NCBI GenBank assembly: GCA_003223875.1
Contig: QHWY01000086.1
Location: 33,233 to 97,232, forward strand
Reading direction: 5' to 3'
Source: Acidobacteriota bacterium
GTDB lineage: Bacteria; Acidobacteriota; Terriglobia; 20CM-2-55-15
DNA length: 64,000 nucleotides
The notes beneath the pieces are model-generated. The model was not told the DNA's origin. It searched no databases and saw only the letters and a list, made by a program, of their open reading frames with translations. Position 1 is the first letter of the stretch. Each line of letters opens with the position of its first letter. The translations under genes and the position numbers were made by a program. This document shows, piece after piece, positions 5,284 through 62,669 of this stretch.

Positions 5284-5328
5284 TGTTGCGTTTCATAATT
5301 ACGGTTACTCATGGTTCGGCAGAGCCGC

Positions 5329-5485
5329 ATTCCCCTCCTCGCAGAGGAGGGGAGGATGCGCCACCAATAAGATGGCGCGAAGCCACCGAAAGCGGCGCAG
5401 ACGGGTGGTCAGACCGGCACGTCCTGGATTTCGCCGAACTGACCACCCGGCGCTTCGCGCCACCCCTCCTCTGCGAGGAGGGGAA
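5329..5485. repeat. MITE family B copy (termini ATTCCCCTCCTCGCAGAGGAGGGG / CCCCTCCTCTGCGAGGAGGGGAAT)
   Basis: Both ends carry the palindromic CCCCTCCTC-GCAGA-GGAGGGG hairpin. The internal GAACTGACCACCCGGCGC is shared with copies at 27571, 39672, 47144 and 49401. Confidence 0.7.
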
Positions 5486-5578
5486 TTCGTCAAGGCAATT
5501 TTCAAACGCAACACTTGCCCCGATTTCTGAAGAAAAAATGATGTAAAAATTATAGGATGTGGCGCGAGGAGGGCTGCC

Positions 5579-13707: not shown

Positions 13708-14039
13708 TCCCTCTCCCTCTGGGAGGTGTTGCAAAACGAGACGCAGTGCGAATTCAAACGACCAGACTACTCAGTCACCCAATGATTGATTTCGTCAGTG
13801 GGTAGTTGCGTCATCAGCGCTTTGCACAAAAAATACATCGTGGGCGCTCATAGAGCGCCCCTACAGTTGCGCACCCCAAGCTGTAGGGGCGGTCTATGAC
13901 CGCCCTGGATTTTTTGTGCAAAGCCCATCATCAGGTAATTTGACAACTGCATTTGACACCGCACATTGGACACTCGATATTTGACAATCCAAGCACCCAG
14001 CGTAAGCCAGTTTTGCAACACCCTCTTCTGGGAGAGGGA
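13708..14039. mobile_element. Composite inverted-repeat-bounded element containing a nested MITE-A and four TTGACA direct repeats
   Basis: Left end TCCCTCTCCCTCTGGGAGGTGTTGCAAAAC and right end GTTTTGCAACACCCTCTTCTGGGAGAGGGA are about 30-bp imperfect inverted repeats. The interior has MITE-A (13819..13925) and TTGACA-like repeats at 13939, 13953, 13967 and 13981. Confidence 0.4.
13819..13925 (-). repeat. MITE family A copy 1 (107-bp near-palindromic element GCTTTGCACAAAAAAT...ATTTTTTGTGCAAAGCC)
   Basis: Near-identical to the copies at 27463, 32855, 52388, 57782 and 60998, in reverse orientation. Flanked by catcag/catcatcag. Confidence 0.8.
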
Positions 14040-14051
14040 AAGCCGCTGCAG

Positions 14052-23968: not shown

Positions 23969-25142
23969 AGATTTCCTGAGGGCACTTGGTAAGCCGCTCA
24001 CACCGGGCTTCCGTGACCAGGTACGTATTCTCCACGCCGACACCGCCCAGGCCGGGATAGAAAACCTTTGGCTCGACTGCCAGAACTACACCGGACTCCA
24101 GAGGCGTATCGAATTTCGGTGCGATCACCGGTGTCTCGTCGAGCTCCAAACCCACGCTATGGGCCACGAATCGGACCTGATTCTCGCCTGCGCCCATGAA
24201 ATGAGCCGCGAAGGAAGTCTTGGCCACCCGATCGAGAATATCTTGATAAATCTGGCTGGGAATGTTTCCGGGGCGGAGTCTCTCTTCGATCCACGTATTC
24301 AGTTCGATGATGTACTTATAGGTGTCCCGCATCTGCTGCGAGACAGGACCAAGCGAATACGTCCGGGACCCATCGGCGATATAACCGGCATAGCCTCCGC
24401 AGATATCGATCATGACAGGTTCGTTTCGTTTCAAGACCCTCCGGCTTCCCATTATCGAAGCAGCCGCGTAAAGTCCGCGTGTACCAACGGGCCCATCGAA
24501 TGCGTGCGGATAAGCCGCCGTCTCGCCAAACGACACCGCTCCATAATGCATCTCCATATTGAAACGCCGGACGCGCGTTATTCCTTGGTGGCCGGCCATT
24601 CGCAGGACGTATTCGATGCGGGCGGCAAGTTCAAATTCCGGCAAGCCATCGCGAAGCTGTGACGGAATATCGAGAAACATCTTATCGAGCTGTTCGGCCG
24701 CGCGCCGGATGCATTCGATTTCATAGGAGGTCTTGACCGCGCGTGCATTACGTATGGCGGACGAACCATCAACAATTTTCGATTTCGGGAAATATTTCGA
24801 TACCTGTTGATACGTCGCCACCGGCAAGACGTCCAGTTCGAATCCGAGAGTTTCGCCGGGATTCGGTATGATCCCCGGCAGTTCGGAGTACGTTTTCAGC
24901 AGAATCAGATTTTTGATGGCCGATTCCGATTTCGCTCGCTGATAGCTCTTACGAATGGCCAGCAACGGCTCGCCATCACGCGGAAACCACAACACACCCG
25001 TCTGCATGGTGCCCGTGAGGTAGTACTGATCCACGTTCTGTAGGATCACCAGCGCGTCGCAATCCATGAATCGCCGCACGCGCTGCCATCGTCGCTCGAG
25101 TTCCTCTCTAGGGATGTATTCGGGTAGTTCCATATCGGCCAT
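23958..25142 (-). CDS. M24 family metallopeptidase (Xaa-Pro aminopeptidase/creatinase-like)
   Basis: Pita-bread fold motifs: MIDICGGYAGYIADGSRTY, HSVGLELDE, and GVGVENTYLVTE near the C-terminus. Confidence 0.8.
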   Translation of the reverse strand: MADMELPEYIPREELERRWQRVRRFMDCDALVILQNVDQYYLTGTMQTGVLWFPRDGEPLLAIRKSYQRAKSESAIKNLILLKTYSELPGIIPNPGETLGFELDVLPVATYQQVSKYFPKSKIVDGSSAIRNARAVKTSYEIECIRRAAEQLDKMFLDIPSQLRDGLPEFELAARIEYVLRMAGHQGITRVRRFNMEMHYGAVSFGETAAYPHAFDGPVGTRGLYAAASIMGSRRVLKRNEPVMIDICGGYAGYIADGSRTYSLGPVSQQMRDTYKYIIELNTWIEERLRPGNIPSQIYQDILDRVAKTSFAAHFMGAGENQVRFVAHSVGLELDETPVIAPKFDTPLESGVVLAVEPKVFYPGLGGVGVENTYLVTEARCERLTKCPQEIFTV

Positions 25143-25159
25143 GATAATATACGCAGCGA

Positions 25160-25330
25160 CAATTCAACCGTACTCCGATGAGGGAAAGCGGTTCAAATCC
25201 GCTACTGCCCCGCAACTGTGAGACGACAGCTCCCCGGCGAGCCACTGCCGAATGGCGGGAAGGCGAACTTCCAATTCCGTCGTCAAGTCAGGAGACCTCC
25301 TGGAGGAATAACCTTTCGAGGGAGAGGCAC
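25160..25330 (+). promoter_or_regulatory. Cobalamin (AdoCbl) riboswitch in 5' leader of TonB-dependent receptor gene
   Basis: AGGGAAAGCGGTTCAAATCCGCTACTGCCCCGCAACTGTGAG matches the conserved GGGAA..GGTG.AAATCC..GCCCCGCAACTGT core. The B12-box GCCACTGCCGAATGGCGGGAAGGCG follows, then the RBS and start codon. Confidence 0.75.
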
Positions 25331-27462: not shown

Positions 27463-27570
27463 GGCTTTGCACAAAAAATCCTGGGCGGTCATAGACCGCC
27501 CCTACAGCTTGGGGTGCGCAACTGTAGGGGCGCTCTATGAGCGCCCGCGATGTATTTTTTGTGCAAAGCC
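27463..27570 (+). repeat. MITE family A copy 2, inserted into a MITE-B remnant
   Basis: Full-length A element. Flanked by tcgccaaac on both sides (TSD). The right-hand TSD belongs to MITE-B sequence. Confidence 0.8.
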
Positions 27571-27645
27571 TCGCCAAACTGACCACCCCGGCGCGACAGC
27601 TTCTATTAAGCTGTCGCGCCACCCCTCCTCTGCGAGGAGGGGAAT
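27571..27645. repeat. MITE family B partial copy (right half only)
   Basis: TCGCCAAACTGACCACCCCGGCGCGACAGCTTCTATTAAGCTGTCGCGCCACCCCTCCTCTGCGAGGAGGGGAAT equals the right half of the 39672..39824 copy. The left half is absent. Confidence 0.6.
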
Positions 27646-27649
27646 ATTA

Positions 27650-47494: not shown

Positions 47495-49492
47495 ATGATC
47501 TCCATATCAGCGATTCGCCACTGCCTGCTTGGAGCCGCGGTGCTCGCGGGCGCAACAGTCCTTCATGCCCAAATTTCTCCGCTCACACCGGACATTCCTC
47601 CCAGGTTCGAAGTCCCGACTGAATCGTACGATTACGTCAAACGCGACGTCATGATCCCGATGCGCGACGGCGTCAAGCTCCATACCGTCGTTGTCGTACC
47701 GAAGGGTGCGAAGAACGCTCCGATGATCATGACTCGTACGCCATACAACGCAGCGCAGCGGACCGAGCGAGTTCGGTCGCCGCGCATGCTGGCCATTCTG
47801 CCGGAAGGCGACGAAGTATTTGCCGCTGACGGCTACATTCGCGTGTTTCAGGACGTCCGTGGCAAGTATGGATCGGAAGGCGAATACGTCATGACGCGGC
47901 CCTTGAGGGGGCCTCTCAACTCAAGCACCGTCGACCACTCAACCGATGCTTACGACACGATCGAGTGGCTCGTGAAAAATGTCCCGGAATCGAACGGCAA
48001 AGTCGGCATGCTGGGAAGCTCATATGAAGGCTTCACAGTGGTTATGGCGCTGGTCAATCCTCATCCTGCATTGAAAGTCGCGGCGCCGATGAGCCCGATG
48101 GTCGATGGCTGGATGGGAGACGATTGGTTCCATTTCGGCGCGTTCCGGCAGATCAATTTCGATTACTTCACCGATCAGACGACCGTCAAAGGCGAGGGCA
48201 ACCCGATCGTACGGCAAACGCGCGACGACTACGAAAACTTCCGCCGCGCCGGCTCCGCCGGAGATTTCGCACGCGCCGCAGGTCTCGATCAACTGCCATG
48301 GTGGGGCAAAATTTCAGAGCATCCCAGCTACGATATGTTCTGGCAGGCGCAAGCGCTCGACAAAACGATGGCCGCGCAGCCATTGAAGGTTCCCACGATG
48401 TGGATTCAAGGACTCTGGGATCAGGAAGACATGTGGGGCGCCATTCACTGCTATCTGGCGACGGAACCCAAGGATGGCGACAATTCAAAAAACTTCCTCG
48501 TTATGGGACCCTGGCGTCACAGTGGCGTGAACTACAGTGGGTCGACTTTGGGACCGCTGAAATGGGAAGGGGATACGGCGCTTCAGTTCCGGCGCGACGT
48601 GCTGAAACCATTTTTTGATCAGTATCTGAAAGATGGCGCGCCGAAAGCCGATACGCCGCCGGTGTTCATTTACAACACCGGCGAGAACCACTGGGACCGC
48701 TTCAAGTCGTGGCCGCAGGCGTGTGATCGAGGGTGCCCTGGGAAACCGAAGCCGCTTTATCTGACGGCGGGTTTCGGCCTCTCGTTCACCAGTCCCTCAG
48801 CTTCATCTGGATACGACGAGTACGTTTCGGATCCGGCAAAGCCGCTTCCGTATATTCCCCGTCCAGTTCGTGTTGGAGACTCGGATGCATGGAGACGCTG
48901 GCTGGTAACCGACCAACGTGCATTCGCCGATCGTACCGACGTTCTCACATACATGACACCTCCGCTTACCGCCCCGCTGCACATCGCCGGCGCGCCGATG
49001 GTGAACCTCGTCGCTTCGACAAGCGGTACGGATAGCGACTGGGTCGTGAAATTGATCGACGTCTATCTCGATGAGGTTACGAGTCAGGACGAAATGAGCG
49101 GGTATCAGTTGGGGATCGCGATGGACATCTTTCGCGGCCGGTATCGCGAAAGTTTCGAAAACCCGAAAGCGCTGACGCCGAATGTACCGCTGACATACAA
49201 ATTCGTTCTTCCTCACGCGAATCATGTGTTCCTGCCCGGCCACCGGGTGATGGTCCAAATTCAATCGAGCTGGTTCCCGCTCTACGATCGGAATCCGCAG
49301 ACCTTCGTGCCAAATATTTTCTTCGCGAAGCCCTCGGACTACGTCAAGGCAACGCAGCGCGTTTATCACACCAGTTTCATTGATTTGCCGGTTGTTCCAA
49401 ATTCCCCTCCTCGCAGAGGAGGGGTGGATGCGCCGACAGCCAGCAGGCTGACGGCGCAGACGGGGTGGTCAGAACGGCGAAATGACCATTGA
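47495..49492 (+). CDS. CocE/NonD family hydrolase (S15 X-Pro dipeptidyl-peptidase-like)
   Basis: Signal peptide. GYIRVFQDVRGKYGSEGEY and GMLGSSYEGF (GxSYxG nucleophile) motifs. The last about 30 codons are MITE-B sequence. The longest ORF starts at 47414. Confidence 0.8.
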   Translation: MISISAIRHCLLGAAVLAGATVLHAQISPLTPDIPPRFEVPTESYDYVKRDVMIPMRDGVKLHTVVVVPKGAKNAPMIMTRTPYNAAQRTERVRSPRMLAILPEGDEVFAADGYIRVFQDVRGKYGSEGEYVMTRPLRGPLNSSTVDHSTDAYDTIEWLVKNVPESNGKVGMLGSSYEGFTVVMALVNPHPALKVAAPMSPMVDGWMGDDWFHFGAFRQINFDYFTDQTTVKGEGNPIVRQTRDDYENFRRAGSAGDFARAAGLDQLPWWGKISEHPSYDMFWQAQALDKTMAAQPLKVPTMWIQGLWDQEDMWGAIHCYLATEPKDGDNSKNFLVMGPWRHSGVNYSGSTLGPLKWEGDTALQFRRDVLKPFFDQYLKDGAPKADTPPVFIYNTGENHWDRFKSWPQACDRGCPGKPKPLYLTAGFGLSFTSPSASSGYDEYVSDPAKPLPYIPRPVRVGDSDAWRRWLVTDQRAFADRTDVLTYMTPPLTAPLHIAGAPMVNLVASTSGTDSDWVVKLIDVYLDEVTSQDEMSGYQLGIAMDIFRGRYRESFENPKALTPNVPLTYKFVLPHANHVFLPGHRVMVQIQSSWFPLYDRNPQTFVPNIFFAKPSDYVKATQRVYHTSFIDLPVVPNSPPRRGGVDAPTASRLTAQTGWSERRNDH

Positions 49493-50969: not shown

Positions 50970-51469
50970 AATTTCCGAACGGCCTCTATGATCTCATCGG
51001 CGATCGTTTCGGGTGTCCCATTGTCGGTTGAGACATGCAGTTTCGCCAGCGCGTAATGCGGTTCCCGGCTTTGATATAGCCCTTCCGCCTGTTCTTTGCT
51101 GGTCAACTTCGGCCGTGTACCATCAATTTTCACACGATCGCCGACCTTGGCGAAAGACACTTTAAGCCAAACCGTCAAACCTGTGGTCTCCGCAAGCGCG
51201 CGGTTTTCCGGATCGAGAAACGCTCCACCCCCCAGCGCTATAACCGATTGTTTTAACGAGGAAACTTGCTTCAGTGAGTGGTGTTCGTGCTGCCTGAAAC
51301 GGGCTTCTCCGTTTTCGCGAAAAATATCAGCTACCGTACGCCGCGCCCGCCGCTCGATTTCCTCATCAAGGTCGATGAATTTCCATCCGAGCTTTTTCGC
51401 CAGGCGCCGCCCGACCGTGGTTTTTCCCGAGCCCATGAAGCCAACCAGATAAATGCGACTAACGGACAT
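50966..51469 (-). CDS. aroK: Shikimate kinase
   Basis: IYLVGFMGSGKTTVGRRLA P-loop. 167 aa. Confidence 0.9.
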   Translation of the reverse strand: MSVSRIYLVGFMGSGKTTVGRRLAKKLGWKFIDLDEEIERRARRTVADIFRENGEARFRQHEHHSLKQVSSLKQSVIALGGGAFLDPENRALAETTGLTVWLKVSFAKVGDRVKIDGTRPKLTSKEQAEGLYQSREPHYALAKLHVSTDNGTPETIADEIIEAVRKL

Positions 51470-52298
51470 TGTTGACGCTGACAGCCCCCTTGATATCTTC
51501 GACAGTAACCCTTCCCTTGCGATTCTCGATTCTTACGTCTCCTATGATGCCGCGGATGTCCACCGGACCGTAACGATTCGAGACCTGCTGGTTTCCTTCC
51601 AGGCCCTGAATACTGACCTTGCCATTGCGATTGTCGATTCGAATCGACGAGCGTTTCGGCACGTGCAGCTTTAACGAACTCTTAAATCGCTGCCTCGGAA
51701 TGTCTCGAAAGTCTACCGCATCGCGGTTCGAGACGATTCGGTATCCGGTGCGGCCCGGCTCGATTGAAAATGTGAAATCCTTCGAAAGATGCTCGGCTTC
51801 TTCTTTATTCGATGCACGAACGGTCTTCTTCACGTCCAGAACCACGCGATCGGAATCGGAAGCCCGTATCTCGACGTTGCCGGATCGATTGACAATTTCG
51901 ATGTTCGAATCCAAAGGAACCACGGCCTCCCGATGTTCGTCGAAGCTGAAATTATTGCCAGTGATGTCCCACAAATCGATTTCATCGATATCGAACATAT
52001 TCCCAAGATCGGAACTGATGTTTGCTGCCGTAGTCAACGCGCTTCCCCCAAAAACAACGAACAGGAGTACGGCTATTTCTGAGCGCGAAAATAACGCGCG
52101 GCTACCGTCTGCGTGTCGAAGCCGGCGATAATCGACAATTTTTAATGCTCCCCAACCGATGAGAAGGACGGGCCAGCCGCGTACGACATATCCCCAGATC
52201 GGAAGACCATGTCCCAGACCTTGTACCAGAAGCAGCATCCCAACGGCTGTCAAGGTTACGGCCCAATATATGGCTCCGGCGCCTGGATGGACCCTCAT
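51459..52298 (-). CDS. Membrane-anchored protein with DUF4097-like beta-strand repeats (putative adhesin/envelope-stress family)
   Basis: 2 N-terminal TM helices. Repeated G(N/D)V(E/D)IR...G.V.V motifs (VDIRGIIGDVRIENRKGRVTVEDIKGAVSV). Confidence 0.5.
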   Translation of the reverse strand: MRVHPGAGAIYWAVTLTAVGMLLLVQGLGHGLPIWGYVVRGWPVLLIGWGALKIVDYRRLRHADGSRALFSRSEIAVLLFVVFGGSALTTAANISSDLGNMFDIDEIDLWDITGNNFSFDEHREAVVPLDSNIEIVNRSGNVEIRASDSDRVVLDVKKTVRASNKEEAEHLSKDFTFSIEPGRTGYRIVSNRDAVDFRDIPRQRFKSSLKLHVPKRSSIRIDNRNGKVSIQGLEGNQQVSNRYGPVDIRGIIGDVRIENRKGRVTVEDIKGAVSVNNVR

Positions 52299-52323
52299 TT
52301 TGCGCTACCCAAGGAGGAAATTC

Positions 52324-52510
52324 GGGGTCAGACGGGTGAATTCCCTATTTTGGAACTGCAAAAATAGGGAATTCACCCGTCTGACCGGCTTTGCACAAAA
52401 AATACATCGTGGGCGCTCATAGAGCGCCCCTACAGTTTGCGCACCCCAAGCTGTATGGGCGGTCTATGACCGCCCAGGATTTTTTGTGCAAAGCCCGTCT
52501 GACCCCGAAT
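52324..52510. repeat. 28-bp perfect palindrome (GGGGTCAGACGGGTGAATTCCCTATTTT...AAAATAGGGAATTCACCCGTCTGACCCC) interrupted in its 3' arm by MITE-A
   Basis: Left arm 52324..52351, loop 52352..52359, right arm 52360..52386. The right arm resumes at 52496..52506 after the MITE. Confidence 0.6.
52388..52495 (-). repeat. MITE family A copy 4
   Basis: Full-length element with TSD cgtctgacc (52378..52386 and 52496..52504). Confidence 0.8.
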
Positions 52511-52555: not shown

Positions 52556-53530
52556 ATGAACCGGAAGTTATTGTTATTATTGATCTTGTCAGCAATTATA
52601 GCAGTTGCATTGTACCGTCTTATAGGACGGGATTTCGATTGGTCCTTGTTTATTACCAGTTTATGGAACGTTCAACCCGGTTGGCTGATGGCTTCCATTG
52701 CAGCGACGTTGCTGACATACGTTGTTCGCGCCTTTCGATGGAAAGTCTTGCTGAACCCTTTGAAATCCATCCGCGTGGGACCATTGATCAGCACAAACGT
52801 TTTGGGATTCTCCGCCATATACCTGATCGGACGAGCGGGAGAAGTCGTGCGGCCGCTCTGGCTCACGCGATGCGAACAGATTCCACTCACGGCATCGGTT
52901 GCGACCATCATCGTCGAGCGTTTCCTCGATACGCTGATGATCATCGCGCTGTTTGGATGGGCATTATTGGTGGTCAAGCTCCCTGCGGCGGCCGGGCACA
53001 CGGTAATGCTTATGAAAAACACCGCCTGGGTGATGGTCGCTGGATCCGTTGCCGCGATGCTTTTCTTGTTTTTCTTTCGAGCAAATGTGGAACGCATTGT
53101 CCGATACGTTCCCATCGCGCGGCTCGCCTCATTATTGAAAAGTTTCTCGGAAGGTTTGTCGTTTCTTGATCGCGGGCGCAGTTTCGGATTAGTCATCGCC
53201 CATTCCATTCTCGTCTGGATCGTCATCGTCCTGCAGTTTTGGTTCATGCTGCTTGGAATGAATTTTCGTCTTTCGATTTCAGCCGCAACTTTGGTCATGG
53301 TTGGAGCAGCCATCGGCTCTGTCGCGCAAGTCCCGGGCATCGGCGGAGGTTTTCAGGCCGGATATGTTTTCTGCATGACCACATTCTTCATTGTTCCCGC
53401 GGAGCAAGCAATCGCGACCTCGCTGGTCGCGTGGGTTTCCTGCTATGTTCCGACCGTTCTAGCGGGCGGACTCTACATGGTCTCTCAGGGTCTGTCGTTG
53501 AAAGATCTCCGAACAGTACCAGTAGAATAA
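52556..53530 (+). CDS. Flippase-like domain protein (lysylphosphatidylglycerol synthase TM-region family, UPF0104)
   Basis: N-terminal pattern [14 protein letters not shown]...[32 protein letters not shown] is characteristic. 8 TM helices. Confidence 0.65.
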
Positions 53531-54388: not shown

Positions 54389-56824
54389 ATGAGCATGGAG
54401 CTGGTTAAAGCGGATCAAGGCCCTGAACAGCAACAAGTTAGTATCCCGGATGTTCTCCCGGTGTTGCCGCTTACCGACATCGTCGTCTTTCCTTACATGA
54501 TCGTGCCGTTATTTGTGAACCGCGAGCGCTCCACGAAAGCTGTAGATCAAGCTCTGTCGGAAAACCGGATGATCCTATTGGTATCGCAGAAAAACGCGAA
54601 TGTGGACGATCCGAAGGCAGAAGATTTGCACGACTTCGGGACCGTTTCCGTGATCATGCGCATGCTGAAGCTGCCAGACGGCCGTGTGCGAATCCTGGTT
54701 CAAGGCTTTTCACGCGCAAAAGTGGAATATTTCGACGATTCGAAGCCGTACATCACGGCTAAAGTCGAGCCGAAGACAGAGCCCCAAGTGGTTCCGAATT
54801 CGCCCGAATTCGAAGCACTCATACGGAACGTGAAGTCATCTCTCGAAAAAATGGTCTCTCTCGGTAAGAACATTTCTCCAGATCTCGTGGCTATCGCAAC
54901 GAATATCGACGATCCAGCCCGGCTGTCGGATCTGGTCGCTTCCAATCTCGATCTCAAAATCGATAAAGCGCAGGAGGTCCTCGAGCTGATGGATCCTGTG
55001 GCGCGACTGCGCCGCGTTCATGAATTGATGGCGAAAGAAATCGGAGTGCTCGAAATTCAGAACGACATCAACACTCAAGCTCGTGGCGAGATGGATAAAA
55101 GCCAGCGCGAGTTCTATCTTCGCCAGCAGATGAAAGCGATCCAACAGGAATTGGGTGAAGGAAACGAACTTCAGGAAGATATCGAGCAGTACCGAACCAA
55201 AATCAAAAAAGCCAAAATGCCGACCGAGGTGACCGAAGAAGCCGAGCGGCAGCTTGGACGGCTAGAGCGCATGCATCCGGATGCGGCGGAAACCGCCACA
55301 CTGCGCAATTATCTCGACTGGATGGTTTCGCTGCCTTGGTCGAAATCGACGAAAGACAATCTCGATCTGAAAAAGGCCCAGAAGATCCTCGACGAAGATC
55401 ATTACGGGCTCGAGAAAATCAAGGAGCGCATTGTCGAGCACCTCGCCGTACGCAAGCTGAAGAAAGACACGAAGGGCCCAATTCTCTGCTTTGTCGGCCC
55501 GCCTGGCGTCGGTAAAACCTCTCTCGGAAAATCCATCGCCCGAGCTTTGGGCCGCAAATTTGTTCGAATGAGTCTGGGCGGCGTTCACGACGAGGCGGAA
55601 ATCCGCGGACATCGTCGCACATACGTTGGCGCGATGCCGGGGCGGATCATCCAAAGCATTCATCAGGCAAGCACCAACAATCCAGTCTTCATGATGGACG
55701 AGGTCGATAAAATCGGTGCGGATTTTCGCGGCGATCCTTCATCGGCATTACTCGAAGTTCTCGACCCGGAGCAAAATTTCGCCTTCAGAGATAACTATCT
55801 CGGCGTGCCGTTCGACCTTTCAAACGTGATGTTCATTACGACAGCCAACATGCTGGATCCAATTCAGCCGGCGTTTCGCGATCGGATGGAGATCATCTAC
55901 CTCAGCGGCTACACGGAAGAGGAAAAAATCGAAATCGCCAAGCGACACCTGATTCCGAAACAAACCGCAGAGCATGGTCTAAAGAAAGATCAGATCCAAT
56001 TTAGCGACGAAGGACTGCGGGCCATCATCAATCTGTACACGCAGGAAGCGGGGTTACGGAATTTGGAGCGCGAAATCGCTGCCGTGTGCCGCAAGGTTGC
56101 CAAACAGGTTGCGATCGGGGAGAAGAAGAACCGAAAAATTCATACCGACAATTTGGATCAATTCCTTGGACGTCCGAAGATTTTTCAGGAAGAGCTGCTG
56201 AAACGTGATCAAGTTGGAGTCGCAACAGGCCTGGCCTGGACACCTGTCGGTGGGGATGTGCTATTTGTCGAAGCGACCGCAATGAAAGGTCGCGGGACTC
56301 TCACGCTTACAGGGCAACTCGGTGATGTCATGAAGGAATCGGCGCAAGCGGCGCTCAGTTACGCCCGCTCGCATACGAAAGAGTTCGGAATCAGCGACGA
56401 CTTCTTTTCGAAGCATGACATTCACGTGCACGTGCCCGAAGGGGCGATTCCCAAAGACGGGCCATCAGCGGGCGTCACGATGGCAACGGCCATCCTGTCG
56501 CTGCTGACCCAGAAAGCCGTCCATCGAAAAATCGCCATGACGGGCGAAATTACGTTGCGCGGCGAAGTGCTTCCCGTGGGCGGCATCAAAGAGAAAGTGC
56601 TGGCGGCGCGCCGCGCCAAAATCGACACAGTTATTCTGCCGTCATTGAACAAACGCGATCTCGAAGATATAAATGAGACGATCCGCAAGGAGATGAAATT
56701 CATCTTTGTCGATGACGTCAAGAGCGTCTTCAAAGCAGCCCTGCTCGAAAACAAGAAGCCTCTGAAAACCGCCGCGCGACGAAGCCCGCGCCGTCTGCCG
56801 AAGGGCGCTGAGGCCACGGTGTGA
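54389..56824 (+). CDS. lon: ATP-dependent Lon protease
   Basis: LON N-domain. Walker A GPPGVGKTSLGKSIA. Catalytic PKDGPSAGVTMATAILSLL (Ser) and K in the C-terminal domain. 811 aa. Confidence 0.97.
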   Translation: MSMELVKADQGPEQQQVSIPDVLPVLPLTDIVVFPYMIVPLFVNRERSTKAVDQALSENRMILLVSQKNANVDDPKAEDLHDFGTVSVIMRMLKLPDGRVRILVQGFSRAKVEYFDDSKPYITAKVEPKTEPQVVPNSPEFEALIRNVKSSLEKMVSLGKNISPDLVAIATNIDDPARLSDLVASNLDLKIDKAQEVLELMDPVARLRRVHELMAKEIGVLEIQNDINTQARGEMDKSQREFYLRQQMKAIQQELGEGNELQEDIEQYRTKIKKAKMPTEVTEEAERQLGRLERMHPDAAETATLRNYLDWMVSLPWSKSTKDNLDLKKAQKILDEDHYGLEKIKERIVEHLAVRKLKKDTKGPILCFVGPPGVGKTSLGKSIARALGRKFVRMSLGGVHDEAEIRGHRRTYVGAMPGRIIQSIHQASTNNPVFMMDEVDKIGADFRGDPSSALLEVLDPEQNFAFRDNYLGVPFDLSNVMFITTANMLDPIQPAFRDRMEIIYLSGYTEEEKIEIAKRHLIPKQTAEHGLKKDQIQFSDEGLRAIINLYTQEAGLRNLEREIAAVCRKVAKQVAIGEKKNRKIHTDNLDQFLGRPKIFQEELLKRDQVGVATGLAWTPVGGDVLFVEATAMKGRGTLTLTGQLGDVMKESAQAALSYARSHTKEFGISDDFFSKHDIHVHVPEGAIPKDGPSAGVTMATAILSLLTQKAVHRKIAMTGEITLRGEVLPVGGIKEKVLAARRAKIDTVILPSLNKRDLEDINETIRKEMKFIFVDDVKSVFKAALLENKKPLKTAARRSPRRLPKGAEATV

Positions 56825-57744
56825 AGCTCGAGGATCTCGGTGAAGGCGGCTTCATCCGAAAAATCCGCGAACGATTCAAAGCGGCGGTGGTTGTTCCAAT
56901 TGGTGACGACGCCGCCGTTTTTGATATTCCTTCCGGTCATTCTCTCGTGTTCTGCTCCGACCTGCTCGCCGAGAACAGTCATTTCATTCGTAATCTGCAT
57001 CCGCCGGATTCGATTGGCTACAAATCCGTCGCGGTCAATGTCAGCGATGTGGGCGCAATGGGAGGCACGCCGCTTCATTTCCTGATCTCATTTGCTGCGC
57101 CGGGCGATCTCGATGTCGCCTGGGTTGATTCTTTTTTCGACGGTGTCGCGAAAGCATGCGCGGACTTCGACATTTCCCTCATTGGCGGCGACTCGTCCTC
57201 CTCCGACCGGATCTTCCTTGATGTTTCGATGATTGGCACTGTTCCCTCGGGCAAAGCAGTTCGCCGCTCCGGCGCAAAGTCAGGGGATTCAATCTATGTT
57301 ACCGGACAACTCGGCGGTTCAGCTCTGGGCCTCGAATGCTTGAAATCCAGGGATCTGAAAAATCGGGCGGTTCGAAGGCATCTCTATCCCGAACCGCGTC
57401 ACAAAGTTGGTGCGGCGCTTCGGGAGCGAGTGCACGCGATGATCGATATCAGCGACGGACTTTCCACGGATCTCACCCATATCGTGGAGGAATCGAAGGT
57501 CTCCGCTCGCATCTACAAAGATCGGCTTCCGGGATGGCCTGATGCCGCGTCCAATCACATCCTGCATGGAGGGGAAGAATATGAATTGATCGCCGTCTCT
57601 TCGCAGGATCTCGCAGAGGTGGTGATGAATGTGCCTCTAAGACGGATCGGAGAAATCATCGACTCCGGATTCGAAAACCAAGTCTTCCTCATCGATGGCC
57701 CTCAGGAATCCGTCTTGAGTCCTCTCGGCTGGCAACATTTCTGA
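56821..57744 (+). CDS. thiL: Thiamine-monophosphate kinase
   Basis: GTG start overlapping the lon stop. AIRS-like fold motifs (IGDDAAVF, VAVNVSDVGAMGG, IGGDSS). 307 aa. Confidence 0.8.
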   Translation: MKLEDLGEGGFIRKIRERFKAAVVVPIGDDAAVFDIPSGHSLVFCSDLLAENSHFIRNLHPPDSIGYKSVAVNVSDVGAMGGTPLHFLISFAAPGDLDVAWVDSFFDGVAKACADFDISLIGGDSSSSDRIFLDVSMIGTVPSGKAVRRSGAKSGDSIYVTGQLGGSALGLECLKSRDLKNRAVRRHLYPEPRHKVGAALRERVHAMIDISDGLSTDLTHIVEESKVSARIYKDRLPGWPDAASNHILHGGEEYELIAVSSQDLAEVVMNVPLRRIGEIIDSGFENQVFLIDGPQESVLSPLGWQHF

Positions 57745-57752
57745 AAACAGAT

Positions 57753-57779
57753 TACCCTCTCCCTCTCTAGGAGAGGGTA
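57753..57779 (+). terminator. Stem-loop after thiL (TACCCTCTCC-ctctcta-GGAGAGGGTA)
   Basis: 10-bp stem with 7-nt loop, 9 bp after the thiL stop. Its 3' arm is duplicated as the TSD of the adjacent MITE-A. Confidence 0.4.
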
Positions 57780-57781
57780 GG

Positions 57782-57888
57782 GCTTTGCACAAAAAATCCT
57801 GGGCGGTCATAGACCGCCCCTACAGCTTGGGGTGCGCAACTGTAGGGGCGCTCTATGAGCGCCCACGATGTATTTTTTGTGCAAAGCC
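57782..57888 (+). repeat. MITE family A copy 5
   Basis: Full-length element with TSD gagagggtagg (57771..57781 and 57889..57899). Confidence 0.8.
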
Positions 57889-57915
57889 GAGAGGGTAGGG
57901 TGAGGGTCTCAAGAT

Positions 57916-60965: not shown

Positions 60966-60998
60966 CCCCAATTCACGAATTAGATTCGTGAATTGGGG
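60966..60998 (+). terminator. Perfect 15-bp stem-loop CCCCAATTCACGAAT-tag-ATTCGTGAATTGGGG
   Basis: Immediately downstream of the pseudogene stop. Its 3' arm is duplicated as the TSD of the adjacent MITE-A. Confidence 0.35.
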
Positions 60999-61103
60999 CT
61001 TTGCACAAAAAATCCTGGGCGGTCATAGACCGCCCCTACAGCTTGGGGCGCGCAACTGTAGGGGCGCTCTATGAGCGCCCACGATGTATTTTTGTGCAAA
61101 GCC
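60998..61103 (+). repeat. MITE family A copy 6
   Basis: Full-length element with TSD gtgaattggg (60988..60997 and 61104..61113). Confidence 0.8.
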
Positions 61104-61127
61104 GTGAATTGGGATGTGCGCCCCCTT

Positions 61128-62669
61128 TTACAGCTTCATGGCCGCGCGTGTTCTCTGGACCAGAACATTATCCTTCTCGCCGCTGCCTTTCAAATAGAAA
61201 GAGCTTGCCGCCAGGAACTGAGCGCGCCACGCCGGACTCACCTTGAAATAATCTTCGAGGATCGCGCAACTATATTTGTAATCGTGAGCATCACGCCCTT
61301 TCAGGAAGACCAACCGTCGTGCTGCATTCATGAGATCCTGCGGCGAGCCGCCGTTGCTGAGATAGTGATGAATCTTCTTGGCCGCGCTCATGCGGTCTCG
61401 ACCCACTTCGCTAAAGATTTCCTCTAGCGCGCCTCCAGATTCTTTGACGGCGAGCGGTTTTACATCCTCGATGCGGACGTCGGCGACTTTGCCTCTGACA
61501 GCATCGCGGAACAGGGTAATGAAGGCACAGTCCTGAAGGAGCAAAAGCTTTCTTGTAACGTCATCGCCGCTGGCCTGAAACGCATAGCGCAGCGCATTGG
61601 CGGAACTCATCGAATGAACGTTAGGAACGTTGGGCTGCCTCATGACGATTTCGCTGGCAGCGACAAAAAGGGCATCCCATATCGAGTGCGGTGAAACACC
61701 ATGGTTGATCAAGGCAACGGCTTTGTCGCACGCTTCCTCGCTGCTTCCCTGGCGAAGCACCGCCAGCATATCTCGAGTCGCACCATCATCAAGTTTTCCA
61801 CTCATCCAGGCCGGACCCATGCTGGCAACCAGTTTCTGATTCCTCCGCCAGGGCCGGTCAGCAAGCTGATCACTCAAAGCCGGCGTGCTGTTCTTCACAT
61901 CGTGATTCAAGCAGGCGTACGCCAGCGAGCGGAGAACCGCCTCGGCGTGCTGCCAACCGATGAACTGGAGCAGTCGCCAGCTATGGCCTACAAAAATCGC
62001 TTTATGACCGATGGAACGAAAATCGCGAGCCCCGAATCGATAAAAAAGTTCGTAAATCTCGTTGGCTCCCGCCGAGCGCACAAGCCCGGCGACGGCTGCG
62101 TCCGCGTTCTTTTCATCCCAATTCTCCATCGCAGTGATGAACGCCTCTTTTGCCTTGTGAGGAGGCGGAACGATGCTTTCATTGACCGGCGCCATTCTCC
62201 AGCCGCTGTCCTTTTGCTCCATCGCTTGCGATTTCTTGAATTCGTCGAGCGCCCAGAATATCGGCAGCCATCGATCGGTCTCCGGTGACGCAAGACTTTC
62301 CTGATGGGCCGCATTCACTACCATGACGGCGTGGAACTTGAAGCCGACATTCGGCCGAGGAGCGATATTCCGAACGCCGGCCAGGAACAGAGCGGCGACG
62401 ACCTGCTGATACGTCGCTCCTTGATGAATGCGCTGAGCAACCTGCTCGAGCAGCTCCGCCTGCGGTGTGTCTTCGATAAGCCGGACCAACGGCTCGATTC
62501 CCGCACCGAGCCTAACTAATGCCGGAGTCACTTTCGCTTCCTGTGCCGATCCTGGCGGCACGTTTTTGAGGAACGCAAAACTTCCAGCACTGATCCCGGC
62601 GACTTTCAGAAACTGGCGGCGTGTCGTTTTGTCTTGCATAATGTCCTCCTGTGAATTTGGGACAGACAC
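61128..62669 (-). CDS. Tat-signal hypothetical protein (513 aa, alpha-helical)
   Basis: Twin-arginine motif TRRQFLKVAGISAGSFAF near the N-terminus. No catalytic motif recognised. Possibly DUF1800-like, but I cannot verify. Confidence 0.5.
   Translation of the reverse strand: MSVPNSQEDIMQDKTTRRQFLKVAGISAGSFAFLKNVPPGSAQEAKVTPALVRLGAGIEPLVRLIEDTPQAELLEQVAQRIHQGATYQQVVAALFLAGVRNIAPRPNVGFKFHAVMVVNAAHQESLASPETDRWLPIFWALDEFKKSQAMEQKDSGWRMAPVNESIVPPPHKAKEAFITAMENWDEKNADAAVAGLVRSAGANEIYELFYRFGARDFRSIGHKAIFVGHSWRLLQFIGWQHAEAVLRSLAYACLNHDVKNSTPALSDQLADRPWRRNQKLVASMGPAWMSGKLDDGATRDMLAVLRQGSSEEACDKAVALINHGVSPHSIWDALFVAASEIVMRQPNVPNVHSMSSANALRYAFQASGDDVTRKLLLLQDCAFITLFRDAVRGKVADVRIEDVKPLAVKESGGALEEIFSEVGRDRMSAAKKIHHYLSNGGSPQDLMNAARRLVFLKGRDAHDYKYSCAILEDYFKVSPAWRAQFLAASSFYLKGSGEKDNVLVQRTRAAMKL

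What the first reader, a model, noticed from the sequence alone, without database searches (positions are those of the whole stretch)
52324..52510. MITE-A preferentially lands in the 3' arm of pre-existing hairpins
In three copies the duplicated target is the 3' arm of a perfect stem-loop:
- a 28-bp palindrome at 52324..52386, resuming at 52496;
- the thiL terminator hairpin at 57753..57779;
- a 15-bp hairpin at 60966..60998.

This suggests structure-directed targeting of terminators or REP-like hairpins, as with some REP-associated or ssDNA transposition systems. Such insertions could modulate termination of thiL, the DUF4097 gene and the flippase-like gene.
Basis: seen in the sequence. Interest (0 to 1): 0.5.

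Follow-up and report, generated by a model that had tools for sequence, protein, structure and literature searches.

The report
Ordinary MITE nested in palindromic repeats
A 108-bp non-coding mobile element does sit inside one arm of three DNA hairpins in this window, but across 75 independent copies it picks targets by a weak symmetric sequence motif and piles up inside other repeats that happen to be palindromic, so it does not appear to recognise hairpins.

Summary
Three of the six MITE-A copies in the window split the + strand 3' arm of a perfect stem-loop, each with a 9-10 bp target duplication. Near-identical contigs still carry the unoccupied, intact 32-bp-stem palindrome at site 1.

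The interpretation mostly fails.
- Of 75 independent MITE-A sites from soil metagenomes, 85% do not touch a hairpin.
- Leaving out the three motivating sites, 8 of 72 overlap a hairpin, against about 8% of roughly defined intergenic positions (P = 0.21).
- Arm choice relative to the element is 6:5, and the position within the hairpin is not fixed.
- Folding energy of the target sites equals that of random sites.

What is real is nesting. 29% of sites lie in other dispersed repeats, against 12% of intergenic controls (P = 6e-5), and those repeats are often palindromic. Once this is accounted for, unique hairpins are hit at chance (2 of 53, against 3.7%).

Targets share a symmetric motif: G or C at both ends of the duplication, and A or T three bases outside it. 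The motif predicts which position is used inside hairpins. One REP-like hairpin family is a fixed-position hot spot.

The inverted repeats, the 9-bp duplication and a related autonomous element with an IS903-like DDE transposase rule out single-strand transposition. Site 1 lies between two gene starts, so it is not a terminator.

The parts
52320..52386 (.). Pre-existing long palindrome, left part: 5' arm 52320-52351, loop 52352-52360, first 26 nt of the 3' arm 52361-52386. It belongs to a dispersed family with AAATTCGGGG...CCCCGAATTT ends.
   Evidence: stem 32, loop 9 after removing the element. Intact empty alleles in L278, L280 and L281. Paralogous copies in L051/L140 and L100.
52378..52386 (.). 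Target-site duplication, copy 1 (CGTCTGACC), site 1
   Evidence: Empty alleles carry a single copy.
52387..52495 (-). MITE-A copy, 109 bp, with terminal inverted repeats GGCTTTGCACAAAAAAT. Strand is given relative to the orientation of copies 27463, 32854, 57781 and 60997.
   Evidence: As a single strand it folds into one long hairpin: -45 kcal/mol, z = -10.3.
52496..52504 (.). Target-site duplication, copy 2 (CGTCTGACC), site 1
52505..52510 (.). Last 6 nt of the palindrome's 3' arm (CCGAAT), displaced by the insertion
57753..57779 (.). 10-bp-stem hairpin 9 nt after the stop codon of the thiL-like gene. It is part of a dispersed repeat (GGAGAGGGTAGGGTGAGGGTC...GACCCTCACCC) and remains intact because the duplication copies its 3' arm.
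   Evidence: It is terminator-like only on the - strand.
57781..57888 (+). MITE-A copy, site 2. Duplication GAGAGGGTAG at 57771-57780 and 57889-57898.
   Evidence: Present in all 10 orthologous contigs.
60966..60998 (.). Hairpin at site 3. The ancestral stem is 14 bp perfect, about 23 bp with one mismatch. It lies between the upstream gene region and the 3' end of ORF 61128..62669 (- strand).
60997..61103 (+). MITE-A copy, site 3. Duplication GTGAATTGG at 60988-60996 and 61104-61112.
   Evidence: Present in L276, L277 and L279.
13818..13925 (-). MITE-A copy not in a strong hairpin. Duplication CGTCATCAG / CATCATCAG. It is nested inside a larger element bounded by inverted repeats, about 13709-14040.
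27463..27570 (+). MITE-A copy, duplication TCGCCAAAC. It is inserted at the edge of another dispersed repeat (27573-27646).
32854..32961 (+). MITE-A copy, duplication GAGTTGATG, with no hairpin at the target

Best explanation
MITE-A is a non-autonomous cut-and-paste element, mobilised in trans by a DDE transposase that is a distant relative of the IS903 group of the IS5 family.

**How it inserts**
- The transposase binds the 17-bp terminal inverted repeats (GGCTTTGCACAAAAAAT).
- It makes cuts staggered by 9 bp (occasionally 10) in double-stranded target DNA.
- It chooses targets by a weak, two-fold-symmetric sequence motif: A or T three bases outside the duplication on each side, G or C at duplication positions 1 and 9, and A/T-leaning positions 2-3 and 7-8.

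**Why copies end up in hairpins**
- Copies accumulate in intergenic DNA, and 2.4 times more often than expected inside other dispersed repeats. These repeats are tolerated landing pads, and some carry a good motif match.
- In this genome those repeats are largely palindromic: REP-like hairpins at the ends of another MITE, and long AAATTCGGGG...CCCCGAATTT palindromes. About 15% of copies therefore sit in a hairpin arm or loop.
- The three hairpin hits in this window are such nested insertions, plus small-number clustering. The hairpin is a bystander, not the recognition signal.

**Shown:** inverted repeats, duplication, motif, nesting excess, an empty allele, and a related autonomous element.

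**Inferred:** that the same transposase clade moves MITE-A in this genome, and how much of the nesting excess comes from tolerance and how much from hot-spot sequence.
For: **Element type**
- Six copies in the window with perfect 17-bp inverted repeats.
- 65 of 75 sites have a 9-bp duplication and 10 of 75 have a 10-bp one.
- An orthologous empty site with a single CGTCTGACC in contigs more than 99% identical to the window.

**Transposase family**
- The repeat is 13/17 identical to the verified IS903 inverted repeat, with the first 7 bases identical. IS903 also makes 9-bp duplications (PMC2577343, Table 1).
- L261:740-4629 is a 3.9-kb element with the same inverted repeats and a perfect 9-bp duplication. 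It encodes a SWIM + DDE_Tnp_1 transposase.
- That transposase's best NCBIfam model is NF033579, the model IS903 itself hits at 353 bits. It is 28% identical to IS903 across the DDE domain, E = 5e-12.

**Motif**
- G or C at duplication position 1 in 57 of 65 sites and at position 9 in 60 of 65. A or T at positions -2 and +12 in 49 and 47 of 65.
- A matrix trained only on non-hairpin sites ranks the position actually used 1st to 10th of 61 in all ten hairpin sites. The leave-one-out median for non-hairpin sites is 6.

**No structural preference**
- The 45-nt target folding energy has a median of -4.4 against -4.2 kcal/mol for random sites, Mann-Whitney P = 0.33.
- Local control within 40 bp: 11 observed against 8.6 expected, z = 1.2.
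- Arms split 6:5 relative to element orientation, with offsets of 4-26 bp.

**Nesting**
- 22 of 75 sites lie in other dispersed repeats, against 12.1% of intergenic and 4.1% of all control positions, P = 6e-5.
- Hairpin given repeat: 9 of 22 against a control of 31%, not significant.
- Hairpin given unique DNA: 2 of 53 against a control of 3.7%.
Against: - The REP-like hairpin position is hit in 5 of 40 copies. Motif-matched generic intergenic positions are hit at 1.4% or less (odds ratio about 10, Fisher P = 4e-4). The simple matrix does not explain how strong this hot spot is.
- The mirror position on the other arm also satisfies the core motif, yet it was used 0 times out of 5-6.
- Five of 15 perfect stems of 14 bp or more in the sample carry an insertion, although the loci were chosen because they contain the element.
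- Gene calls used to define 'intergenic' are rough (longest-ORF heuristic), so baselines could be off by up to about two-fold.
- The cognate transposase of MITE-A itself was not found in about 0.9 Mb of related DNA.
- The target motif differs from the published IS903 motif, WTTYA-N9-TRAAW.
Confidence: 0.7

Rival explanations
1. Structure-directed targeting. The transposase recognises extruded hairpins or cruciforms, or hairpins on single-stranded DNA. It inserts into one arm of REP-like elements or terminators.
For: - Three of six window copies lie in hairpin arms.
- 11 of 75 sites overlap a hairpin, against 2.8% genome-wide.
- The REP position is a hot spot about 10 times beyond the motif prediction.
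- Five of 15 long palindromes in the sample are occupied.
- In elements from other phyla that share the terminal repeat, 4 of 25 sites overlap stems of 9 bp or more, against 4.1% of intergenic positions.
Against: - 85% of sites are not in hairpins.
- Unique hairpins are hit at chance, 2 of 53 against 3.7%.
- There is no fixed geometry: hits fall in the loop centre, mid-arm, the stem base and just outside the stem.
- The same palindrome family is hit in opposite arms.
- Arms split 6:5 relative to the element.
- Target folding energies equal those of random sites.
- The position used within hairpins is predicted by a motif learned from non-hairpin sites.
- Inverted repeats plus a 9-bp duplication plus a DDE transposase relative are incompatible with HUH-type single-strand transposition.
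Confidence: 0.12
2. Survivorship only. Insertion is essentially random apart from the weak motif. Purifying selection removes copies from genes, promoters and functional terminators. What remains is enriched in junk repeats, which are palindromic here.
For: - The nesting excess is 2.4-fold over intergenic, and no hairpin effect remains after conditioning on it.
- Sites 2 and 3 are fixed in all related contigs, while site 1 is still polymorphic.
- The duplication leaves the thiL-proximal hairpin intact.
Against: - All five or six REP hits use exactly the same position, in both element orientations and with different duplication variants. Tolerance alone cannot explain this; the chance of coincidence is roughly (1/31)^4.
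- A sequence-determined hot spot is therefore needed as well.
Confidence: 0.13
3. Composite spread. A hairpin-bearing repeat that already contained MITE-A was itself copied around the genome. The recurrent hairpin-plus-MITE-A junctions would then not be independent insertions.
For: The REP-like hairpins form the termini of another mobile-looking element, found as pairs 100-180 bp apart.
Against: - Each REP hit has its own perfectly duplicated target variant: GCGAGGAGG, GCAAGGAGG, CTCAGGAGG, GTTAGGAGG.
- MITE-A occurs in both orientations relative to the REP.
- Flanks outside the hairpin differ between hits.
- Site 1 has an orthologous empty allele.
Confidence: 0.03

Closest known systems
IS903 (IS5 family, IS903 group) and MITEs derived from such elements
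   Same: - The terminal inverted repeat starts with GGCTTTG and is 13/17 identical to the IS903 inverted repeat.
- The target duplication is 9 bp.
- The target-site motif is symmetric (palindromic) around the staggered cut (PMC2577343).
- A related autonomous element encodes a DDE_Tnp_1 transposase whose best NCBIfam model is the IS903 model NF033579.
   Different: - The related transposase is only 28% identical to IS903 and scores below the NF033579 cut-off (120 against 140 bits).
- It carries an extra N-terminal SWIM zinc finger.
- The target motif is W-N2-[S-N7-S]-N2-W, not WTTYA-N9-TRAAW.
- About 13% of duplications are 10 bp.
- The hosts are soil bacteria from several phyla rather than enterobacteria.
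Nested MITE or IS insertions into other repeats ('safe havens'), as seen in many repeat-rich bacterial genomes (from general knowledge)
   Same: - 29% of MITE-A copies lie inside other dispersed repeats, against 12% expected.
- MITE-A is itself a target for other insertion sequences: an IS1182-like element in L066 and an IS110-family element in L096.
   Different: Nothing essential. Here the host repeats are strongly palindromic, which gives the appearance of hairpin targeting.
REP-specific insertion sequences: IS1397/ISKpn1 (IS3 family) and IS110/IS621-type elements (from general knowledge)
   Same: Some copies sit in REP-like hairpins at a reproducible position. Five or six hits fall at the same position, covering the last 2-3 loop bases and 6-7 bases of the outer arm.
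   Different: Those elements insert almost exclusively into REPs, at one fixed position. MITE-A has only about 7% of its copies there and about 70% in unique DNA.
IS200/IS605 elements and REP/RAYT (REPIN) systems: single-strand, hairpin-guided HUH transposition (from general knowledge)
   Same: Association with hairpin-forming DNA.
   Different: Those systems make no target duplication and have no terminal inverted repeats. They insert 3' of a short specific sequence on single-stranded DNA. MITE-A has 17-bp inverted repeats and a 9-bp duplication.

Membership tests
MITE (non-autonomous DDE transposon derivative) | Short (under about 300 bp) with no coding capacity | tested here: met
   107-109 bp. 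The whole element folds as one hairpin.
MITE (non-autonomous DDE transposon derivative) | Terminal inverted repeats | tested here: met
   GGCTTTGCACAAAAAAT at both ends: 12 matches in the window against 0.22 expected.
MITE (non-autonomous DDE transposon derivative) | Target-site duplication of fixed length | tested here: met
   9 bp at 65 sites and 10 bp at 10 sites, out of 75.
MITE (non-autonomous DDE transposon derivative) | Many dispersed copies, with presence/absence polymorphism | tested here: met
   89 distinct sites in metagenome contigs. Empty allele of site 1 in L278, L280 and L281.
MITE (non-autonomous DDE transposon derivative) | An autonomous partner with the same terminal repeats in the same genome | tested here: inconclusive
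   None was found in the window or in 449 kb of MITE-A loci. A relative with the same terminal repeats and a 9-bp duplication exists on an unrelated contig, L261:740-4629.
IS5 family, IS903 group | Terminal repeat beginning GGC and similar to the IS903 inverted repeat | tested here: met
   13/17 identical to GGCTTTGTTGAATAAATC read from an annotated IS903, with the first 7 bases identical.
IS5 family, IS903 group | 9-bp target duplication | tested here: met
   IS903 duplication length from PMC2577343, Table 1.
IS5 family, IS903 group | Cognate transposase passes the IS903-group model (NCBIfam NF033579, cut-off 140 bits) | tested here: not met
   The L261 and L014 transposases score 120.5 and 115.5 bits. 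This is their best model but falls below the cut-off. IS903 itself scores 353 bits. They are therefore distant relatives, not members by NCBI's criterion.
IS5 family, IS903 group | Target motif WTTYA-N9-TRAAW | tested here: not met
   The observed motif is A/T at -2 and +12 with G/C at duplication positions 1 and 9. It shares the symmetric architecture but uses different bases.
Single-strand hairpin-guided transposons (IS200/IS605, REP/RAYT) | No target duplication and no terminal inverted repeats | tested here: not met
   Both are present.
REP- or hairpin-specific insertion sequences (IS1397/ISKpn1, IS110/IS621 type) | Nearly all copies in hairpin repeats, at one fixed position | tested here: not met
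   64 of 75 sites do not overlap a hairpin. Positions within hairpins vary from the loop centre to the stem base.
Terminator-targeting elements (for example group IIC introns) | Insertion at a fixed distance from an intrinsic terminator (stem plus U-tract) at gene 3' ends | tested here: not met
   - Site 1 lies between two start codons.
- The thiL hairpin has no T-run on the thiL strand.
- Unique hairpins are hit at chance.

The most novel reading that the evidence does not exclude
The SWIM-domain IS903-like transposase that moves this family may have a true, structure-assisted preference for cruciform-prone palindromic repeats. That would explain two things the simple sequence motif does not:
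- the REP-like hairpin position is about 10 times hotter than motif-matched sites;
- a third of the long perfect palindromes in the sample are occupied.

It would be an unusual case of a double-strand DDE element using extruded palindromes as preferred entry points.
Probability: 0.12. Interest if true: 0.45.

Novelty: new member of a known kind. Interest (0 to 1): 0.2.

Why it matters
For annotation, this is a caution. In repeat-rich soil genomes, a MITE seen inside hairpins is most simply explained by nesting in other palindromic repeats, not by structure-guided transposition.

The useful by-products are:
- a defined MITE family: 17-bp terminal repeat, 9-bp duplication, target motif;
- evidence that it was active recently, from the polymorphic site 1;
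- a link to a little-described SWIM + DDE relative of IS903 whose terminal repeats occur in at least six bacterial phyla.

MITE-A also carries a hairpin plus T6 module that resembles an intrinsic terminator. Its insertions could therefore affect read-through between convergent genes, independently of the hairpins they land in.

Tried and rejected
1. **Autonomous partner among unpaired terminal repeats.**
   - L066 (1964 bp) is a MITE-A copy interrupted by an IS1182-like element, with duplication CATAG in the loop of MITE-A's internal hairpin.
   - L096 (1803 bp) is a MITE-A copy with an IS110-family element inside it.
   - The 1.8-kb stretch in L014 between two inverted copies encodes no transposase.
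2. **Scan of viral contigs with the 15-nt terminal repeat.** It gave 112 loci, mostly chance single matches. L274 and L237 are phage structural genes. Only L253 (a 317-bp variant) and, found later, L261 were real.
3. **Protein search with the IS903 transposase.** It returned only close enterobacterial relatives, which did not help find the partner.
4. **Literature search for the repeat string.** Only unrelated primer hits came back.
5. **Inverted repeats around the L014 transposase.** None were convincing, and the locus may be cut.
6. **Rfam.** MITE-A has no match; the only hit in the window is a cobalamin riboswitch.
7. **Hairpin plus MITE-A spreading as one unit.** Considered and rejected: each hit has its own duplication variant, both orientations occur, and an empty allele exists.
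8. **Assembly artefact.** Considered and rejected: the three sites recur in independent assemblies. Some copies without a duplication may still be chimeric joins; L276 breaks synteny exactly at a MITE end.

Full report
**1. What is in the sequence**

The window holds six copies of a 107-109 bp element. All are bounded by perfect 17-bp terminal inverted repeats, GGCTTTGCACAAAAAAT: 12 matches against 0.22 expected by chance. The copies start at 13818, 27463, 32854, 52387, 57781 and 60997. Each is flanked by a direct repeat of 9 bp, or 10 bp at 57781.

- **Site 1 (52387).** The element splits the 3' arm of a palindrome. After removal of the element and one copy of CGTCTGACC, the palindrome has a perfect 28-bp stem, or 32 bp with the ATTC/GAAT extension, and a 9-nt loop.
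- **Site 2 (57781).** It follows a 10-bp-stem hairpin at 57753-57779 and duplicates GAGAGGGTAG from that hairpin's 3' arm.
- **Site 3 (60997).** It duplicates GTGAATTGG from the 3' arm of a 14-bp perfect stem, about 23 bp with one mismatch.

The other three copies are not in strong hairpins.

**2. The hairpins came first, and the element moved recently**

A look-up of the thiL-like protein returned ten contigs 99.2-99.8% identical to the window. L278, L280 and L281 carry site 1 empty. They have the intact palindrome, a single CGTCTGACC and no element. L276 and L277 carry the insertion exactly as in the window.

This shows directly that the duplication was made by the insertion. It also shows that the insertion is polymorphic among near-identical strains. 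Sites 2 and 3 are occupied wherever they are covered.

**3. What kind of element it is**

Terminal inverted repeats and a fixed-length duplication are the marks of a DDE transposon acting on double-stranded DNA.
- I read the IS903 inverted repeat from an annotated plasmid copy. It is GGCTTTGTTGAATAAATC at both ends of a 1057-bp element.
- MITE-A's repeat is identical to it at 13 of 17 positions, including the first seven. IS903 also makes 9-bp duplications (PMC2577343, Table 1).
- A genome-collection scan for the repeat pair found elements of 89-118 bp in MAGs labelled Planctomycetota, Acidobacteriota (Pyrinomonadaceae, Granulicella), Abditibacteriaceae, Verrucomicrobiota, Rubrobacteraceae and Hyphomicrobiaceae. 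They share the same 15-nt ends and 9-bp duplications but have unrelated interiors.
- One held locus contains a full-length relative, L261:740-4629 (3890 bp). Its inverted repeats are GGCTTTGCACCAAAAGTCC and GGCTTTGCACAAAAAGTCCC, and its 9-bp duplication AGCCTATGC is perfect. It has subterminal TGCACCAAAA repeats and a 478-aa SWIM + DDE_Tnp_1 transposase. It also carries a DNA methylase-Mrr fusion as a passenger gene.
- That transposase's best NCBIfam model is NF033579, at 120.5 bits against a cut-off of 140. IS903 hits the same model at 353 bits. The two proteins are 28% identical across the DDE domain, E = 5e-12.

The family is therefore mobilised by a distant, SWIM-bearing relative of the IS903 group. 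The cognate copy for MITE-A itself was not found in the DNA I hold. A single-strand (HUH) or REP/RAYT-type mechanism is excluded by the inverted repeats and the duplication.

**4. Testing "preferentially lands in hairpins"**

A metagenome scan with a MITE-A-specific pattern gave 120 loci totalling 449 kb. These contained 109 complete copies at 89 distinct sites. Seventy-five of those sites have a clear duplication. I rebuilt each empty site and asked whether the duplication overlaps a perfect hairpin with a stem of at least 8 bp and a loop of 3-24 nt.

| Measure | Observed | Baseline |
|---|---|---|
| Overlap, all 75 sites | 11 (14.7%) | 2.8% of all positions; 7.9% of rough intergenic positions |
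| Overlap, without the 3 motivating sites | 8 of 72 | P = 8e-4 against the whole sequence; P = 0.21 against intergenic |
| No hairpin within 30 bp | 76% of sites | not computed |
| Local control, positions within 40 bp | 11 | 8.6 expected, z = 1.2 |
| Folding energy of the 45-nt target, median | -4.4 kcal/mol | -4.2 kcal/mol, Mann-Whitney P = 0.33 |

**5. Testing "3' arm"**

A palindrome in duplex DNA has no intrinsic 3' arm. The label needs a reference direction.
- Relative to the element's own orientation, the hits split six 3' to five 5'.
- The window's own three differ: 52387 is inverted relative to 57781 and 60997.
- The geometry is not fixed. The centre of the duplication lies 4 to 26 bp from the hairpin centre. 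Hits fall in the loop centre (L013, L016, L068), mid-arm, flush with the stem base (L137, L144) or just outside it.
- A second copy of the site-1 palindrome family (L100) is hit in the opposite arm, at a different position.

**6. What does choose the target**

The 65 sites with 9-bp duplications show a two-fold-symmetric motif.
- G or C at duplication position 1 in 57 of 65 sites, and at position 9 in 60 of 65.
- A or T three bases outside the duplication on each side, in 49 and 47 of 65.
- Weaker A/T preferences at positions 2-3 and 7-8.

I trained a symmetrised matrix on non-hairpin sites only. It ranks the position actually used 1st, 1st, 1st, 2nd, 2nd, 3rd, 3rd, 4th, 7th and 10th of 61 candidates at the ten hairpin sites. 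That is at least as good as the leave-one-out ranks for non-hairpin sites, whose median is 6. Inside hairpins the element follows the same sequence rule as elsewhere.

**7. Where the hairpin signal comes from**

Twenty-two of 75 targets (29%) lie inside other dispersed repeats. The comparison figures are 12.1% of random intergenic positions and 4.1% of all positions, P = 6e-5. Those repeats are often palindromic: 31% of intergenic repeat positions overlap a hairpin, against 3.7% of unique intergenic positions.

| Target class | MITE-A sites in a hairpin | Control |
|---|---|---|
| Inside a dispersed repeat | 9 of 22 (41%) | 31% (P = 0.23) |
| Unique DNA | 2 of 53 (3.8%) | 3.7% |

The hairpin association is therefore fully accounted for by nesting in other repeats. 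Unique hairpins, the class that would include ordinary gene terminators, are not favoured.

In the window, the targets at 13818, 27463, 32854, 52387 and 57781 all lie in or against other repeats.

**8. A real hot spot, and what remains unexplained**

The sample contains 40 REP-like hairpins of the form CCCTCCT-n(3-8)-AGGAGGG. They usually occur as inverted pairs 100-180 bp apart, so they look like the termini of another MITE.
- Five of the 40 carry MITE-A, and a sixth hit lies in a degenerate copy (L095). All are at the same position, with a duplication of the form NNNAGGAGG followed by GGA.
- The hits are independent. The duplication variants differ (GCGAGGAGG, GCAAGGAGG, CTCAGGAGG, GTTAGGAGG), and each is perfectly duplicated. 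Both element orientations occur, and the outer flanks differ.
- The position fits the motif. Even so, its occupancy of 12.5% is about ten times that of motif-matched generic intergenic positions, which are hit at 1.4% or less (Fisher P = 4e-4).

Extra sequence determinants, neutrality of the site, or some help from cruciform structure could each explain this. I cannot separate them with the tools available.

**9. Functional claims**

- **Site 1 is not a terminator.** It lies between the start codon of a DUF4097/LiaF-like gene (51459..52298, - strand) and the start codon of an LPG_synthase_TM gene (52556..53530, + strand).
- **The hairpin after the thiL-like gene is not a canonical thiL terminator.** The gene (AIRS domains, 56821..57744) is followed by a hairpin with no T-run on the thiL strand. 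The pattern scan calls it terminator-like only on the opposite strand. It belongs to a repeat family. Because the duplication copies the whole arm, the hairpin remains intact next to thiL.
- **MITE-A carries its own terminator-like module.** The strongest terminator-like motifs in the region are inside MITE-A: GGGCGGTC-TAT-GACCGCCC followed by AGGATTTTTT. Any effect on read-through would more likely come from the element's own module.

**10. Verdict**

MITE-A is an ordinary MITE, not previously catalogued as far as I could find, of an IS903-like SWIM-DDE clade. It has a weak symmetric target motif and a tendency to nest in other repeats that are palindromic. Structure-directed, 3'-arm-specific, terminator-directed and single-strand targeting are not supported.

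Caveats:
- 'Intergenic' rests on a longest-ORF heuristic.
- The metagenome sample mixes related strains, and some contigs are chimeric at repeats.
- The cognate transposase of MITE-A itself was not recovered.

Noticed in passing
L261:740-4629 (IMG/VR contig); also L001-L042: The 15-nt end GGCTTTGCACAAAAA with 9-bp duplications bounds short elements with unrelated interiors in MAGs labelled as at least six bacterial phyla, plus one dubious archaeal MAG, L019. L261 holds a 3.9-kb autonomous relative with a SWIM + DDE_Tnp_1 transposase (IS903-like but below the NCBIfam cut-off) and a passenger DNA methylase-Mrr fusion gene.
   Followed up: partly
window 52456-52476 (+), 57819-57801 (-), 61035-61017 (-): Each MITE-A copy carries a module resembling an intrinsic terminator: an 8-9 bp GC-rich stem, GGGCGGTC-TAT-GACCGCCC, followed by AGGATTTTTT from the terminal repeat. 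These were the top hits of the terminator scan. The hairpin at the other end sits 8 nt from its T-run.
   Followed up: no
window 5327-5375, about 5463-5490, 27620-27646, 39670-39718, 39752-39825, 47142-47190, 49399-49447: REP-like hairpins (ATTCCCCTCCTCGCAGAGGAGGGGTGG, and the reverse form CCACCCCTCCTCTGCGAGGAGGGGAAT). They often occur as inverted pairs 100-180 bp apart, so they look like the termini of a second MITE family. There are about 40 copies in 395 kb of related DNA, and they form a fixed-position hot spot for MITE-A.
   Followed up: partly
window 52320-52510 (minus the MITE); L051:5389-5464, L090:2341-2400, L108:4828-4878, L100:3113-3192: A family of long perfect palindromes (stems of 23-35 bp) that share the ends AAATTCGGGG...CCCCGAATTT but have different interiors. 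At site 1 the loop is inverted between alleles: GGAACTGCA in the window against TGCAGTTC in L278 and L280. A second family of long palindromes is built from TTGAACATTGAACA units (L054, L099, L137).
   Followed up: partly
L066:622-2585 and L096:128-1930: MITE-A is itself a target for other elements. In L066 an IS1182-like element (DUF772 + DDE_Tnp_1_6, inverted repeats GAGCYGTGAAAAAA) sits in the loop of MITE-A's internal hairpin with duplication CATAG. In L096 an IS110-family element (DEDD_Tnp_IS110 + Transposase_20) sits in MITE-A's centre.
   Followed up: partly
L276:10284 onward; L014:2463-4474: In L276, synteny with the window ends exactly at the right end of the site-3 MITE-A and no duplication is present. 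This is either an assembly join through the repeat or recombination between copies. In L014, two inverted copies have swapped flanks, consistent with an inversion between them. About 14 of 89 sites lack a duplication.
   Followed up: partly
window about 13709-13737 and 14010-14040: An inverted-repeat pair, CCCTCTCCCTCTGGGAGGTGTTGCAAAAC ... GTTTTGCAACACCCTCTTCTGGGAGAGGG, brackets the MITE-A copy at 13818. That copy therefore appears nested inside a further element of about 220 bp bounded by inverted repeats.
   Followed up: no
window 25137-25318 (+): Cobalamin riboswitch (Rfam RF00174, 81 bits, E = 2e-18). It is the only Rfam family in the window that passes its gathering score.
   Followed up: no
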